Below, piece by piece: positions 21,587 through 29,826 of a stretch of 37,672 nucleotides of DNA. The DNA is from Escherichia coli (GTDB lineage: Bacteria > Pseudomonadota > Gammaproteobacteria > Enterobacterales > Enterobacteriaceae), in assembly GCF_051903065.1 (NCBI RefSeq), contig NZ_CP178442.1. One strand, 5' to 3'. Position numbers and translations under genes: made by a program. Within the stretch, counting starts at the first letter, position 1; each line of letters starts with the position of its first letter. The notes beneath the pieces are model-generated. The model had not been told where the DNA came from, did no database searches, and saw nothing but the letters and a program-made list of their open reading frames with translations.

Positions 21587-21820
21587 ATGAGTTATATGAA
21601 AAAAACAAGAATTCTTTCGTTGGTTTTGTTCTCAATTGCATTGAGTGGTTGTGGTGAGGACATCAAGACCGTTGATTGGTGGCGAAATCATCCGGAGGAA
21701 GCGATCTCGAAGGTTGAAGAGTGTAAGAAGTCAGGCGACGTATCGGATAATTGTAAAAACGCCAAGACTGCGTTGTACAAGAATCAGCAACAAGATGCGC
21801 CTGTGCCTCAAATTAATTAA
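21587..21820 (+). CDS. small lipoprotein (77 aa), possible entry-exclusion or T4SS-associated lipoprotein
   Basis: Signal peptide with lipobox LSGC; Cys/Lys-rich mature part; located at head of the T4SS region. Confidence 0.5.
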   Translation: MSYMKKTRILSLVLFSIALSGCGEDIKTVDWWRNHPEEAISKVEECKKSGDVSDNCKNAKTALYKNQQQDAPVPQIN

Positions 21821-26640: not shown

Positions 26641-27720
26641 ATGTCATTCTTTGTTAAATATAATACAACCGTTATGGAAGCAATTGATAAGGTTGGATCT
26701 ACTTATCAAAGTCAATTCACACAAGATATAATGTCATTAGTGACAGCATCTGTCACGTTATATGTACTATGGAAAGGCTATCAAATACTCGCCAGTAAAA
26801 CTCAGACTCCGATGCAGGATTTAGTTTGGGATTTATCAAAATTTGCGATCATAATCATGTTTATAACAAATGCAGATGGATATTTGACAGCGGCAACCAA
26901 TGCATTGCAAGGCATGAAAGATGGGCTTTCTGGCGGAGTTAGCGCATGGCAAACCTTAGATAACTTATGGGAGAAAACACAAAATCTTGCGGAAAAGGTA
27001 TATCAAAAAGACACTGATTTCATTCCTTTGGCTGGCGCATTAGGTATGACGCTTGTTTGGGCTGGCTCACTTATTTTAATGACAATTAGTGCTGTTGTTT
27101 TTTTAACTGCCGATATTACGATGAAATTCCTTATTATAACAGCGCCAATATTTATTTTCTGTCTGATGTTTGGTTTTATTAGAGTTATGTTTAATAACTG
27201 GTTGCAATCGCTATTTTCTAGCATCCTGACTGTGTTATTTGCCAGTTTAGTAATTCGGATAGCTATGGATTTTCAGGGGGATATATTGCAACAAGTATCT
27301 AATGCGACACCCAATAGTAATGTTATGACCGTAAGTGCAATGGGATTTTTAGCCGGATTGTTGGGAGCTTTATTGGTTCTTATAGCTAAAAGTTTTGCTG
27401 TCCAGTTAGCAGGTGCAGGTGTTGAAGGTGCTGTTCAGGGCGCAGCCATGATGGGGCTGGGTGCTGCTGGTATGGCTACTGGTAAGTCTCTGATGCTTGG
27501 CGGTCGCGCTGGTTTAGGTTTTGGCTTAGGGATGGCCGGAAGAACGGGCATGAATTCTTTATCTGGGAAAGCAGGGAATCTGATGGGGCGTGGTGCGCGA
27601 ACAGCCGCTGAATGGGCGGGTGAAAAGGGATATCAGGCGCTGGCTCCGACAGGTGCTTTGGGGATGAAGGCGAGAAGACTTGCATCCCTGGAAAAAGCAC
27701 GAGCGAGGAATGCCGCATGA
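26641..27720 (+). CDS. pilX6: VirB6-like polytopic inner-membrane protein
   Basis: 359 aa with multiple hydrophobic helices and Gly/Ala-rich C-terminal tail; VirB6 position. Confidence 0.75.
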   Translation: MSFFVKYNTTVMEAIDKVGSTYQSQFTQDIMSLVTASVTLYVLWKGYQILASKTQTPMQDLVWDLSKFAIIIMFITNADGYLTAATNALQGMKDGLSGGVSAWQTLDNLWEKTQNLAEKVYQKDTDFIPLAGALGMTLVWAGSLILMTISAVVFLTADITMKFLIITAPIFIFCLMFGFIRVMFNNWLQSLFSSILTVLFASLVIRIAMDFQGDILQQVSNATPNSNVMTVSAMGFLAGLLGALLVLIAKSFAVQLAGAGVEGAVQGAAMMGLGAAGMATGKSLMLGGRAGLGFGLGMAGRTGMNSLSGKAGNLMGRGARTAAEWAGEKGYQALAPTGALGMKARRLASLEKARARNAA

Positions 27721-27870
27721 ATATAATGAAACGTTTTTTTTATGTGATGTCCCTGAACTGGATACTGACGTTTGTTGATAAACATATCACCTCCGGATGG
27801 AGCAGGAAGAGAAAGCTAATAACCCAGCTTATTATTTTAATCACGGGAATTACCTTATTTAAGGTCTTAG

Positions 27871-28101
27871 GTGGAATCAGTCAGAGCTGGTTGTGACATG
27901 CTTCATTATTTTGTCATGATACTTTATTTTGTCCTAATCCTTCTTTTAGGAGTGTTTACCTGCTTCGCAGGAATAAGACTTGGTTTAGGGCTTGCGGGGA
28001 AATGGAGAAAGGGTATGGATCTTCGCTTTTTGCTTCTTATTGGTGGGATTCTTTTTCTTCATCTTGGCCTTTATCTCTTAAAGGTGTTCGTGAACGCTTA
28101 A
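27871..28101 (+). CDS. hypothetical small membrane protein between pilX6 and pilX7 (candidate entry-exclusion protein)
   Basis: 76-aa ORF (alternative start at 27898) with two hydrophobic helices; position typical for small exclusion genes in VirB-like clusters. Confidence 0.4.
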   Translation: MESVRAGCDMLHYFVMILYFVLILLLGVFTCFAGIRLGLGLAGKWRKGMDLRFLLLIGGILFLHLGLYLLKVFVNA

Positions 28102-28113
28102 TAAGGTGAATTT

Positions 28114-28239
28114 ATGCGATGTGTGATTCTTTTGTTTTTCCTGTTTCAGATTTCCGGATGTACCACAAGGAATACCCTTCCTTCTGATGTTTCCGGCGAA
28201 CTGGAACCCATTAACCACAGCCAGGTAATCAGTTATGAG
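28114..28239 (+). CDS. pilX7: VirB7-like small lipoprotein (41 aa), below ORF-track cutoff
   Basis: MRCVILLFFLFQISGCTTRN...: signal peptide plus lipobox ISGC; stop TGA overlaps the ATG of the VirB8-like gene (ATGAGTGA). Confidence 0.6.
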
Positions 28240-28921
28240 TGAAAAAATCGAAAAGAAGATTGAGACAGCTAAATCCTTCGAAAGACAACTCTATGCAGAA
28301 AATGAACGGTCTAAGAAAAATGCATGGCGTGTTGCAGTGGCAGCATCATTACTGTCCTTATGTCTTGGGGCTGCAATTTGCGTTCTTGTGCCATTAAAAG
28401 AAAAAGAGCTTGCTATTGTGGCTGTTGGCGAAAAAACAGGCCGTACAGAACTGATTACTCAGGTTAAACAGGAAAAGATCCTGCAATCTGAAGCGCTTGG
28501 GCGGTATTTTGTAAACACGTATATTACTTTACGTGAAGGTTATAATTATCCGTCTCTTCAGTATGATTATGAGACTGTACAGATATATAGCTCGAATACA
28601 GTAAAGGACGATTATCTTCGTCTGTATAACAGCGATATGGCTCCTGATAAAATTTATCATAATAACGGTTCTTACGTTGCGGTTGAGGTCATCTCCAATA
28701 TTATTTCTGACGCAACCGCGCCAGATAAACTGGCCTCTGTGCGTTTTAAAAAAACGACGAGAAACTTCACGACCGGACAGGTTTCAGTTTCATACTGGAC
28801 GGCTCGTGTGACATATCGTTTTGAACCAGAAAAGTCGGTTAAAAGTTCCAGTCGTGAGCTTAATCCTCTCGGTTTTACGGTAACCAGTTACCAGACAGAT
28901 CGGGAAGTCAGGGGGGAATGA
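28235..28921 (+). CDS. pilX8: VirB8-like bitopic inner-membrane protein
   Basis: 228 aa, single N-terminal TM helix then periplasmic domain; position and size typical of VirB8. Confidence 0.75.
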   Translation: MSEKIEKKIETAKSFERQLYAENERSKKNAWRVAVAASLLSLCLGAAICVLVPLKEKELAIVAVGEKTGRTELITQVKQEKILQSEALGRYFVNTYITLREGYNYPSLQYDYETVQIYSSNTVKDDYLRLYNSDMAPDKIYHNNGSYVAVEVISNIISDATAPDKLASVRFKKTTRNFTTGQVSVSYWTARVTYRFEPEKSVKSSSRELNPLGFTVTSYQTDREVRGE

Positions 28922-29826
28922 TGAAGAAATTATTTATTGCTACATGTTTATTGCTTCCTGGGCTTGTGTATTCAGCAGCGACTCCGTTACCTTCTGGATT
29001 TGATGCAAGGATGCAGACTGTGAGTTATAACGGTGCGAATACGACCGTTATCCGGTCAAAGACAGGATTTCTCACATCAGTTGTTTTTGATGAAGGTGAG
29101 GCTGTTATCAGTGCAAAGGCTGGTTTTCCTGCCGGATGGGAAATCACAACCGATGATAATGTTGTTTACATCAATCCGCGTCCCGTTGTTCAGGAACAGG
29201 AAGGCGATGAAGGCGAAAAACTGAAAAAGGTTTTCCAGCCAACAGAAAAGGAATGGGACACGAATCTTTTTGTCAGAACAACAAAGCGGATTTACAGTCT
29301 TGATCTAATCCTTCTGTCAGAAGAAAAACAAGCGCAACCTGCTTATGTTGTACAATTCCGCTATCCATCAGAAATAGCGAAAAAGAATGCAGAAGAAGTA
29401 AGGCTGGCAAAAGAAAAACAGGAAAAACTCAGACAGAAGAAACTGATTTCTGAAAGTTTTGAAAAAGCCGATGCGCCTAAAAACTGGGATTATTTCATGC
29501 GAGTCAATGAAAAATATGACAGTCGTCGTATCGCCCCTGATTTTGCTTATGATAATGGCATATTTACCTTTTTAGGTTTTAACTCAGGGAAAGTATTCCC
29601 AGCTCCATTTGCTGTAAGAGATGGTCAGGAACAGACACTTGCTTTTAATGTGGAAACAAAAGGCAAGTATAAAATCATGGTTATCCACAACGTTAATGAC
29701 AAATTTGTTTTACGCTATGGAAACAGCGTTGTTGGTGTTGTGAATAAATCTTTCGGAAAAGTATTAACCGACCAGAGGAATACATCTTCTCCTGCGGTAG
29801 AACGTGTTGAGGTGAATAATGACTGA
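28918..29826 (+). CDS. pilX9: VirB9-like outer-membrane core complex protein
   Basis: 302 aa with signal peptide; translationally coupled to flanking genes; VirB9 position. Confidence 0.75.
   Translation: MMKKLFIATCLLLPGLVYSAATPLPSGFDARMQTVSYNGANTTVIRSKTGFLTSVVFDEGEAVISAKAGFPAGWEITTDDNVVYINPRPVVQEQEGDEGEKLKKVFQPTEKEWDTNLFVRTTKRIYSLDLILLSEEKQAQPAYVVQFRYPSEIAKKNAEEVRLAKEKQEKLRQKKLISESFEKADAPKNWDYFMRVNEKYDSRRIAPDFAYDNGIFTFLGFNSGKVFPAPFAVRDGQEQTLAFNVETKGKYKIMVIHNVNDKFVLRYGNSVVGVVNKSFGKVLTDQRNTSSPAVERVEVNND

What the first reader, a model, noticed from the sequence alone, without database searches (positions are those of the whole stretch)
28114..28239. VirB7-like lipoprotein gene missed by the ORF track, translationally coupled to virB8 homologue
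A 41-aa ORF with a signal peptide and lipobox (ISGC) sits between the small membrane ORF and the VirB8-like gene, and its TGA stop overlaps the VirB8 ATG. Without it the T4SS core complex would lack its VirB7 component, so the T4SS set is complete only when it is counted.
Basis: seen in the sequence. Interest (0 to 1): 0.3.

Follow-up and report, generated by a model that had tools for sequence, protein, structure and literature searches.

The report
PilX7, the plasmid's small VirB7 lipoprotein
The 42-codon ORF is a real, strongly conserved gene for the small outer-membrane lipoprotein (PilX7/VirB7) of this IncX4 plasmid's conjugation machine; it is already named in the literature, and only automatic annotation skips it, so the finding is correct but ordinary.

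Summary
An ATG-started ORF at 28114..28242 (+) encodes 42 aa (not 41), MRCVILLFFLFQISGCTTRNTLPSDVSGELEPINHSQVISYE. It has a Shine-Dalgarno sequence, a lipoprotein signal (lipobox ISGC, Cys16) and an 8-nt overlap with virB8/pilX8 (ATGAGTGA).

The window is the cfr-carrying IncX4 plasmid pSD11. The ORF is a real gene:
- Against relatives, codons 21-42 show 15 synonymous and 1 non-synonymous change, while the signal peptide diverges freely.
- About 40 clusters of 40-48-aa lipoproteins share an invariant Cys, Gly and Asn.
- All 12 family members looked up lie between virB6 and virB8.

The invariant P-I-N-H (residues 32-35) matches the PVNK motif through which TraN (the pKM101 VirB7) contacts TraO/VirB9.

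An AlphaFold fusion with the PilX9 C-terminal domain orders PilX7 residues 20-34. A reversed-peptide control does not.

Pfam and NCBIfam VirB7/TraN models miss it. A mature-only profile-profile comparison with TraN/TrwH-type VirB7s is modest (60%, score 21.5) but beats 300/300 permutations.

The gene is already known. It is "PilX7/VirB7" in an IncX4 study where Tn5 mutagenesis found the pilX genes essential for conjugation, and databases name it "Pilx7" or "conjugal transfer protein". RefSeq (PGAP) leaves it unannotated. Interest is low; the only value is as an annotation gap.

The parts
28114..28242 (+). pilX7 (virB7 equivalent) CDS, 42 codons + TGA
   Evidence: exact protein on 729 public contigs; pS 0.81-1.0 vs pN 0.10-0.13 against relatives
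28103..28109 (+). Shine-Dalgarno-like AAGGTGA, 4 nt upstream of the pilX7 ATG
   Evidence: read from sequence
28114..28158 (+). signal peptide (residues 1-15: MRCVILLFFLFQISG), predicted to be cleaved by signal peptidase II before Cys16
   Evidence: rule-based scan; diverges freely among homologues while staying hydrophobic
28150..28161 (+). lipobox I-S-G-C (residues 13-16); Cys16 is the predicted lipidated N-terminus; Thr at +2 (not Asp) predicts outer-membrane sorting
   Evidence: Cys invariant and Gly at least 90% conserved in 37 family sequences; the sorting rule is established knowledge, not tested here
28159..28239 (+). mature peptide, 27 aa (CTTRNTLPSDVSGELEPINHSQVISYE)
   Evidence: residues 21-42 show 15 synonymous / 1 non-synonymous change vs L018
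28207..28218 (+). P32-I33-N34-H35, counterpart of the TraN PVNK VirB9-binding motif
   Evidence: Asn invariant and Pro at least 90% conserved in the family; aligned in register with TraN/TrwH PVN by hhalign; motif function from PMC3093366; predicted beta-bridge at E31-P32 in the fusion model
28223..28226 (+). AGGT, Shine-Dalgarno-like element for pilX8 lying inside the pilX7 coding sequence, 8 nt before the pilX8 ATG
   Evidence: read from sequence; function inferred
28235..28242 (+). 8-nt pilX7/pilX8 overlap (ATGAGTGA), basis for inferred translational coupling
   Evidence: overlaps of 1-14 nt in most related loci (gene tables)
28235..28921 (+). pilX8 (VirB8)
   Evidence: Pfam PF04335 E 5.3e-49
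29467..29823 (+). C-terminal domain of PilX9 (VirB9 residues 184-302), predicted binding partner of PilX7
   Evidence: AF2 model pLDDT 86-93; Foldseek hits only VirB9/TraO/TrwF/CagX C-terminal domains, 2ofq_A TM 0.85

Best explanation
The ORF is pilX7, the VirB7-equivalent gene of the IncX4 P-type (MPF_T) conjugative type IV secretion system.

Shown here: it is a real protein-coding gene under strong purifying selection. It has a lipoprotein signal, belongs to a conserved family of 40-48-aa lipoproteins always encoded between virB6 and virB8, and carries an invariant P-[IV]-N motif.

Inferred mechanism: the 42-aa precursor is exported by Sec and diacylated on Cys16 by Lgt. It is then cleaved by signal peptidase II after Gly15 and N-acylated by Lnt. 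Because residue +2 is Thr rather than Asp, the Lol pathway delivers it to the inner leaflet of the outer membrane. There the extended 27-aa mature peptide winds around the beta-sandwich C-terminal domain of PilX9 (VirB9). Ile33 would insert between the two sheets and Asn34 would hydrogen-bond the VirB9 backbone, as TraN Val33/Asn34 do on TraO in pKM101. This would tether and stabilise the PilX9-PilX10 outer-membrane core complex needed for pilus biogenesis and DNA transfer.

The 8-nt overlap with pilX8, whose Shine-Dalgarno element lies inside pilX7, probably couples translation of the two genes within the single long pilX operon.
For: - Gene reality: window vs four relatives gives pS 0.81-1.0 and pN 0.10-0.13 in the mature region. 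Codon by codon vs L018, residues 21-42 have 15 synonymous and 1 non-synonymous change, while signal-peptide residues 2-14 have 1 synonymous and 11 non-synonymous.
- Family: 47 hits at E<=1e-3 among 1.84 billion representatives, about 40 of them 40-74-aa proteins. Cys, Gly28 and Asn34 are invariant in 37 sequences.
- Synteny: all 12 family members looked up lie between TrbL/VirB6 and VirB8. An equivalent small lipobox ORF sits upstream of virB8 in the 13 further MPF_T loci examined, all but one abutting or overlapping it. These include annotated TraN of R46, Ti VirB7 and TrwH of R388.
- Lipoprotein signal.
- Motif: PVNK is the VirB9-contacting motif of TraN, with Val33 and Asn34 (PMC3093366). 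Here it is P32-I33-N34-H35.
- Profile-profile: the mature-only PilX7 family vs TraN/TrwH-type set scores 21.5 (P 8.7e-5) with Cys and P[IV]N in register. None of 300 column permutations reaches this (null 6.9 +/- 1.8, max 13.6).
- Top PDB hit of the family profile is TrwH/VirB7 (7o3j_C, E 0.011).
- Co-fold test: in the PilX9CTD-linker-PilX7 fusion, peptide residues 20-34 reach pLDDT about 68-69 with a beta-bridge at E31-P32, and the CTD is at 86-93. With the reversed peptide the values are 30-36 and 71-87.
- The CTD matches TraO in the TraO-TraN complex 2OFQ (TM 0.85, rmsd 2.0).
- Literature: the IncX4 plasmid pHNSHP23 has 'PilX7/VirB7' in a single PixR-activated pilX operon, and 'the 10 pilX genes' are essential for conjugation by Tn5 mutagenesis (PMC8725589).
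- Databases name it 'Pilx7' or 'conjugal transfer protein'.
Against: - No curated model recognises it. Pfam PF20898 (TraN) and PF17413 (VirB7) and NCBIfam NF010433 give no hit, although they do detect the TraN and Ti VirB7 controls.
- Single-sequence and profile-vs-sequence searches do not link the mature peptide to TraN, TrwH or Ti VirB7. In a decoy test TrwH ranked 18th (E 5), Ti VirB7 40th and TraN 232nd. The mature-only profile found nothing in the PDB.
- Much of the full-length profile similarity comes from the signal peptide. An unrelated lipoprotein family already reaches 85.8% probability.
- The lipobox has an unusual Gln at -4 and fails the strict PROSITE pattern.
- The co-fold evidence is pLDDT only. 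No contact map or PAE was available, the alignment had 15 rows, and the construct was a tethered single chain.
- Lipidation, outer-membrane location, VirB9 binding and translational coupling were not tested experimentally for this protein.
Confidence: 0.9

Rival explanations
1. PilX7 is a genuine small lipoprotein of the transfer operon, but it does something other than the VirB7 job. It could be an entry-exclusion, surface-exclusion or regulatory accessory factor rather than a VirB9-bound core-complex subunit.
For: No hit to the curated VirB7/TraN HMMs. The mature-peptide similarity to solved VirB7s is weak at the single-sequence level. T4SS loci do carry other small lipoproteins such as the EexN family.
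Against: The plasmid has a separate EexN-family lipoprotein (21587..21820). PilX7 occupies exactly the virB7 slot in all loci examined. Its invariant residues are the P[IV]N of the VirB9-binding motif. The profile-profile similarity beats 300/300 permutations. The co-fold test responds to the native but not the reversed peptide.
Confidence: 0.05
2. The VirB7 role in this system is filled by the Cag12-family lipoprotein (33825..34247). Its mature N-terminus, CSSPPEPTPVQFEKANEVINPS, resembles TraN's [22 protein letters not shown]. On this reading PilX7 is redundant or auxiliary.
For: Lipobox LAGC with Cys16 and a TraN-like Pro-rich spacer followed by V-I-N. Weak Pfam Cag12 match (E 0.001, below cut-off); from my own knowledge, not checked here, H. 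pylori Cag12/CagT is described as VirB7-like. It lies in the same operon, downstream of taxB.
Against: The Asn of V-I-N is not conserved in 56-61%-identical homologues, which have T or A there, whereas PilX7's Asn is invariant. It is not in the virB7 position. PilX7, not this protein, is listed as VirB7 in the IncX4 study. The paper's operon description as fetched here names only cds9, pilX1-6, cds8, pilX7-11, taxB and trbM, so this gene's own Tn5 result was not seen; its requirement for transfer is unknown here.
Confidence: 0.04
3. The ORF is a chance open frame in a non-coding spacer whose only role is to carry the ribosome-binding site of virB8.
For: It is very short, gene callers skip it, and the virB8 Shine-Dalgarno element does lie inside it.
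Against: Synonymous sites are saturated while the peptide is nearly invariant. The family is found in about 40 sequence clusters with an invariant Cys, Gly and Asn. It has its own Shine-Dalgarno sequence. No Rfam family and no excess of terminators lie in the interval. The lipoprotein-signal expectation is 0.13 per shuffled window.
Confidence: 0.01

Closest known systems
PilX7 of IncX plasmids (R6K pilX operon; 'PilX7/VirB7' of IncX4 pHNSHP23, PMC8725589)
   Same: This is the same gene. It has the same operon position (pilX6 - small ORFs - pilX7 - pilX8). The identities to other IncX groups in that paper's Table S6 (33-38%; 65.12% to IncX7) match my alignments (29-38%; 67%). A 98%-identical protein is named 'Pilx7' in databases.
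   Different: Nothing of substance. The window copy differs from the commonest IncX4 variant by one residue (T21 vs N21).
TraN of pKM101/R46 (VirB7; PDB 2OFQ, 3JQO; Pfam PF20898)
   Same: A small lipoprotein (48 aa precursor vs 42). Its gene overlaps virB8 (traE) by 11 nt vs 8 nt here. The motif is at identical precursor positions: P32-V33-N34-K35 vs P32-I33-N34-H35. The partner VirB9 C-terminal domain has the same fold (2ofq_A TM 0.85).
   Different: No significant pairwise or HMM similarity, and PilX7 does not reach the PF20898 threshold. Instead of TraN's PPPEPDW it has a conserved LPSDVSG segment before the motif, and a conserved C-terminal QVISYE tail.
TrwH of R388 (VirB7; PDB 7O3J, 8RT4)
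   Same: It is the best PDB hit of the PilX7 family profile (E 0.011), aligned from the signal peptide through PSD...EPVNKT. It is a 47-aa lipoprotein whose gene overlaps virB8 by 4 nt. It is likewise missing from the RefSeq-derived gene table held here, which omits some features.
   Different: The similarity is marginal once the signal peptide is removed (rank 18, E 5). TrwH uses a GTG start.
VirB7 of Agrobacterium Ti plasmid (Pfam PF17413, NCBIfam NF010433)
   Same: A lipoprotein encoded between virB6 and virB8 with a 14-nt overlap. It has F-P-L-N at a similar distance from the lipidated Cys.
   Different: It is longer (55 aa) and has a second Cys, used for disulfide-linked dimers according to the literature cited in PMC3093366. 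PilX7 has no Cys in the mature peptide other than the lipidated one. No HMM match.
Xanthomonas VirB7 (XAC2622) and H. pylori CagT/Cag12: enlarged VirB7-like lipoproteins
   Same: Both have a lipobox followed by a short extended VirB9-binding segment (PMC3093366).
   Different: Those proteins carry an extra globular domain. PilX7 is minimal. The window's separate Cag12-family lipoprotein (33825..34247) is the one that resembles this enlarged type.

Membership tests
VirB7 class (small outer-membrane lipoprotein subunit of P-type T4SS core complexes) | N-terminal signal peptide with a lipobox and conserved Cys | tested here: met
   ISGC with Cys16, R2 in the n-region, uncharged hydrophobic h-region. 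Cys invariant in 37 homologues. It fails only the strict PROSITE PS00013 pattern (Gln at -4). SignalP/LipoP were not available.
VirB7 class (small outer-membrane lipoprotein subunit of P-type T4SS core complexes) | Small size (precursor typically 45-65 aa per PMC3093366; TraN 48, TrwH 47) | tested here: met
   42-aa precursor and 27-aa mature peptide, at the low end. Family range is 40-48 aa.
VirB7 class (small outer-membrane lipoprotein subunit of P-type T4SS core complexes) | Gene located between virB6 and virB8, usually overlapping virB8 | tested here: met
   Window; 12/12 family loci; same slot as TraN, TrwH and Ti VirB7.
VirB7 class (small outer-membrane lipoprotein subunit of P-type T4SS core complexes) | Short extended region with a PVNK-type motif (Val and Asn contact VirB9) | tested here: met
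   P32-I33-N34-H35. Asn invariant, Pro at least 90% conserved, and the middle residue is I/V/L in every sequence listed. Aligned in register with TraN/TrwH PVN. Motif definition from PMC3093366. Val->Ile and Lys->His are conservative departures.
VirB7 class (small outer-membrane lipoprotein subunit of P-type T4SS core complexes) | Binds the VirB9 C-terminal beta-sandwich | tested here: inconclusive
   The in-silico result is supportive only. The native peptide gains pLDDT of about 68-69 and a beta-bridge when fused to the PilX9 CTD, against 30-36 for the reversed peptide. The CTD fold matches TraO/TrwF. No contact or PAE output was available and there is no experiment.
VirB7 class (small outer-membrane lipoprotein subunit of P-type T4SS core complexes) | Lipidated, outer-membrane located; required for VirB9/VirB10 stability and for transfer | not testable with these tools
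   Literature only: 'the 10 pilX genes' of IncX4 pHNSHP23 were essential for conjugation by Tn5 mutagenesis (PMC8725589). There are no biochemical data for PilX7.
Pfam PF20898 (P_T4SS_TraN) | HMM score at or above the gathering threshold (27 bits) | tested here: not met
   No hit at E<=1 for the window protein or at E<=10 for IncX3 PilX7. The TraN control scored 33.4 bits.
Pfam PF17413 (VirB7) / NCBIfam NF010433 | HMM score at or above the curated threshold | tested here: not met
   No hit. The Ti VirB7 control scored 82.1 and 129.6 bits.
PilX7 family of IncX-type and related MPF_T systems (defined here by alignment A5) | Significant HMM similarity over the full length, including the mature peptide | tested here: met
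   Mature-only HMM: window 8e-16, L004 8e-14, IncX1 2e-13, IncX3 7e-12, Aggregatibacter 1e-7. Full-profile search of 1.84 billion representatives: 11 hits at E<=1e-10.

The most novel reading that the evidence does not exclude
The PilX7-type peptides may be a distinct, currently unmodelled VirB7 subfamily with consensus C-x5-7-P-x-[VI]SG-xx-EP[IV]N-x-x-[VI][IM]. Its extra conserved segments (LPSDVSG before the motif, QVISYE after it) would make contacts absent from TraN/TrwH, for example with VirB10 or with the co-encoded Cag12-family lipoprotein. IncX4-type core complexes would then carry two different lipoproteins, an intermediate between minimal (pKM101/R388) and expanded (Cag) outer-membrane complexes.
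Probability: 0.15. Interest if true: 0.35.

Novelty: already known. Interest (0 to 1): 0.1.

Why it matters
There is little new biology here. pilX7/virB7 is an expected component of a P-type conjugation system, and it is already named in IncX4 work.

The practical value is for annotation. In every RefSeq (PGAP) record examined the gene is unannotated: pSD11, pCROD2 and the 40 records shown of 225 matching E. coli RefSeq plasmids. R388's structurally solved TrwH is likewise absent from the RefSeq-derived gene table held here. Neither Pfam nor NCBIfam has a model that detects the PilX7 subfamily.

Automated T4SS completeness calls on IncX4 plasmids would therefore wrongly report a missing VirB7. 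These plasmids are major vehicles of mcr-1 and, in this window, of cfr. A family HMM built from the alignment made here would close that gap.

Tried and rejected
- phmmer of the 42-aa protein against PDB chains: no hit at E<=10.
- Mature-only profile (8 sequences) against PDB: no hit.
- Pfam and NCBIfam scans: nothing relevant, only a weak signal-peptide match to YgdI/YgdR.
- Local mature-only HMM against 4,729 six-frame decoy segments. I first took the best non-family hits to be the TrwH and TraN ORFs. On inspection they were chance matches ('PLPSAVSG', 'ELEPINS') in other frames, and the true TrwH/TraN ORFs were not significant. I therefore dropped the claim of HMM-level homology.
- Full-length hhalign (96.7%) was discounted after the control against an unrelated lipoprotein family gave 85.8% from the signal peptide alone. 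I replaced it with a mature-only comparison plus a permutation null.
- Homologue search with TraN returned only close relatives and could not seed a diverse TraN profile. I assembled the canonical set from plasmid loci instead.
- Non-coding alternatives: no Rfam family in the interval, and promoter- and terminator-like sites were no more frequent than in shuffles.
- The Cag12-family lipoprotein as the true VirB7: rejected as the main reading because its motif Asn is not conserved.

Full report
**What the window is.** The 1.4 kb around the finding is 100% identical to many sequenced IncX4 plasmids. The window has the same length (37,672 bp) as pSD11 (NZ_KM212169.1), a conjugative MOBP/MPF_T IncX4 plasmid from swine E. 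coli that carries cfr between two IS26 copies. The finding lies inside the pilX (virB-type) transfer operon. The gene order is VirB1-like transglycosylase, VirB2, a fused VirB3-4 of 915 aa, VirB5, VirB6, VirB8, VirB9, VirB10, VirB11, the coupling protein TaxB, a Cag12-family protein and TrbM.

**Observation.** The ORF is real: ATG at 28114, 42 sense codons, TGA at 28240-28242. It encodes MRCVILLFFLFQISGCTTRNTLPSDVSGELEPINHSQVISYE.
- The stop does not sit on the virB8 ATG (28235-28237). The genes overlap by 8 nt (ATGAGTGA).
- AAGGTGA at 28103-28109 is a good Shine-Dalgarno sequence, 4 nt before the ATG. An AGGT at 28223-28226 inside pilX7 can serve virB8.
- A rule-based scan required a classic lipobox [LVI][ASTVI][GAS]C with Cys at 13-30, K/R in the first 7 residues, and an uncharged hydrophobic h-region. 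PilX7 passes (ISGC, Cys16). Only four distinct ORFs in the window pass, against 0.13 per shuffled window. The strict PROSITE pattern fails because of Gln at -4.

**Annotation status.** RefSeq/PGAP leaves the whole 514-nt VirB6-VirB8 gap empty in pSD11 and pCROD2. The same is true of all 40 records shown, taken at even steps across 225 matching E. coli RefSeq plasmids. The one record showing a 'hypothetical protein' turned out to have a truncated virB6. One GenBank record calls the ORF 'hypothetical protein'.

**Is it a gene?** Yes, decisively.
- Homologues at 67-71% identity have divergent signal peptides, but residues 22-42 of the peptide are identical apart from E29K.
- At the DNA level, the window compared with four such relatives gives pS 0.81-1.0 and pN 0.10-0.13 over the mature region.
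- Codon by codon against L018, residues 21-42 carry 15 synonymous and 1 non-synonymous change. Signal-peptide residues 2-14 carry 1 synonymous and 11 non-synonymous, and the Gly-Cys of the lipobox is fixed. This is the pattern expected of a cleaved lipoprotein whose mature peptide is functional.
- A profile search of 1.84 billion representative proteins found 47 hits at E<=1e-3. About 40 of these are 40-74-aa proteins; the few long repetitive ones are spurious.
- In 37 aligned members Cys16, Gly28 and Asn34 are invariant, and Gly15 and Pro32 are at least 90% conserved.
- All 12 members whose contigs I fetched lie between TrbL/VirB6 and VirB8 in a VirB3-4/B5/B6/-/B8/B9/B10/B11 array. The number of extra small ORFs between VirB6 and PilX7 varies from 0 to 2, but PilX7 is always present.
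- No Rfam family lies in the interval, and terminator-like sites are no more frequent than in shuffles.

**Is it VirB7?**
- Position: in the 13 further MPF_T loci examined (other IncX types, Aggregatibacter, IncI2, Ti, IncN R46, IncN2, IncW R388 and pMAK3, Campylobacter, Vibrio, Pseudomonas), a small lipobox ORF sits upstream of virB8, all but one abutting or overlapping it. These include the annotated TraN of R46, VirB7 of the Ti plasmid and TrwH of R388.
- Motif: Souza et al. [quoted passage not shown] PilX7 has P32-I33-N34-H35 at the same precursor positions, and the Asn is the invariant residue of the family.
- Sequence statistics are mixed, and I report them as such. Pfam PF20898 (TraN), Pfam PF17413 (VirB7) and NCBIfam NF010433 detect their own controls but not PilX7 of IncX4 or IncX3.
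- The family profile's best PDB hit is TrwH (7o3j_C, E 0.011), the only hit aligned through the motif. A mature-only HMM does not separate TrwH, TraN or Ti VirB7 from six-frame decoys, and the mature-only profile finds nothing in the PDB.
- Full-length hhalign against a TraN/TrwH-type alignment gives 96.7%. An unrelated lipoprotein family already gives 85.8% from the signal peptide alone.
- Mature-only against mature-only gives 60% probability, score 21.5 and P 8.7e-5, with Cys and P[IV]N in register. None of 300 column permutations reaches that score (null 6.9 +/- 1.8, max 13.6).
- So the ordered arrangement Cys / Pro-rich spacer / P[IV]N is really shared, but PilX7 is not a member of the curated TraN or VirB7 HMM families.

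**Structural test.** I fused the PilX9 C-terminal domain (residues 184-302) through a (G4S)6 linker to mature PilX7 (residues 17-42), using paired rows from 15 loci.
- With the native peptide, AlphaFold2 folded the VirB9 domain at pLDDT 86-93. PilX7 residues N20-N34 rose to about 68-69, with a beta-bridge at E31-P32, while the linker stayed at 35-42.
- With every peptide reversed (same composition and conservation), the peptide stayed at 30-36 and the domain fell to 71-87.
- Foldseek matched the model only to VirB9-type C-terminal domains (CagX, TrwF, TraO, Xanthomonas VirB9). These include TraO in the TraO-TraN complex 2OFQ (TM 0.85, rmsd 2.0 Å).
- This supports specific engagement but is not proof. 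No contacts or PAE were available.

**Mechanism (inferred).** The steps are Sec export, Lgt/LspA/Lnt processing at Cys16, and Lol-dependent outer-membrane sorting (Thr at +2). The extended mature peptide would then wrap the PilX9 beta-sandwich through I33/N34 and stabilise the PilX9-PilX10 outer-membrane core complex. Overlaps of 1-14 nt with virB8 are the rule across the loci. Together with the internal AGGT, this suggests translational coupling within the single PixR-activated pilX transcript described for IncX4 (PMC8725589).

**Known or new?** Known.
- The IncX4 study of pHNSHP23 lists the operon as 'cds9, pilX1-6, cds8, pilX7-11, taxB, trbM'.
- It reports 'the 10 pilX genes' as essential for conjugation by high-density Tn5 mutagenesis.
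- It tabulates 'PilX7/VirB7' identities of 33-38% to other IncX groups and 65.12% to IncX7. Those values match a protein of about 42 aa and my own alignments.
- The exact protein occurs on 729 public contigs as 'conjugal transfer protein', and the 98%-identical cluster representative is named 'Pilx7'.

The statement is essentially right for the canonical VirB1-11 set. However, the operon also encodes a 140-aa Cag12-family lipoprotein (33825..34247) whose mature N-terminus looks TraN-like. Its V-I-N Asn is replaced by Thr or Ala in homologues, so it is a poor candidate for the VirB7 site.

**Verdict.** The gene is ordinary and already known. The only point worth carrying forward is the systematic annotation gap for this VirB7 subfamily.

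Noticed in passing
window 27717..27896 (+): An unannotated 59-aa ORF whose ATG overlaps the pilX6 stop (ATGA). It is conserved in relatives (L018 3315..3488, L019 3318..3491, L026 3370..3504), sharing SLNW[IV]L..VDK..TSGWS.RKKL. It is probably a real small protein and possibly the 'cds8' of the IncX4 literature. It is absent from several related systems where pilX7 follows pilX6 directly.
   Followed up: partly
window 27898..28101 (+): An unannotated 67-aa, very hydrophobic ORF (two TM-like stretches) that starts 1 nt after the previous stop. It is in the same frame as pilX7 and separated from it only by TAA TAA plus 9 nt. No counterpart was seen in the relatives fetched. A 49-aa database variant (P0002, 2 contigs) looks like an in-frame deletion fusing its C-terminal part (MDLRFLLLIG) to PilX7.
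   Followed up: partly
window 33825..34247 (+): The Cag12-family protein is a lipoprotein (lipobox LAGC, Cys16). Its mature N-terminus, CSSPPEPTPVQFEKANEVINPSLPY, resembles TraN's. PTP, PSLPY and a C-terminal domain are conserved in homologues, but the motif Asn is not. It may be a second, enlarged lipoprotein of the core complex.
   Followed up: partly
L011 (R388) 7269..7412; also L013, L005, L006, L007, L015: TrwH, the structurally solved VirB7 of R388, has a GTG start and is absent from the RefSeq-derived gene table. The VirB7-slot ORFs of the IncX1, IncX3, Aggregatibacter and Vibrio plasmids are absent too. Small VirB7 genes appear to be missed systematically. The PLSDB tables are incomplete, so the original records should be checked.
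   Followed up: partly
window 4529..4746 (-): Rfam hit to 'Bacillus sRNA ncr1575' (110.7 bits, E 4.6e-17). By my coordinate conversion to pSD11 it lies between cfr and the second IS26. That fits a Gram-positive origin of the cfr segment.
   Followed up: no
window about 3667..6736: An IS26-cfr-IS26 module (coordinates converted from pSD11 record positions 5783..8852). It is the cargo that distinguishes this plasmid from the ~33-kb mcr-1 IncX4 plasmids, which are 98.8% identical over the pilX7 region.
   Followed up: no
window 2072..2728 (+): A 218-aa ORF with a clear lipoprotein signal (LAGC, Cys23). By coordinate conversion it corresponds to a 'hypothetical protein' of pSD11. Its function was not examined.
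   Followed up: no
window 21587..21820 (+): The EexN-family entry-exclusion lipoprotein lies upstream of pilX1 rather than between pilX5 and pilX6 as in IncX1/X3, IncN and IncW. The IncX4 paper already notes this.
   Followed up: no
L003 (pCROD2) between ROD_RS25460 and ROD_RS25445: Two locus tags (RS25455, RS25450) are skipped exactly in the VirB6-VirB8 gap. The original record may hold features there, such as pseudogenes or genes without a protein accession, that the PLSDB table omits.
   Followed up: no
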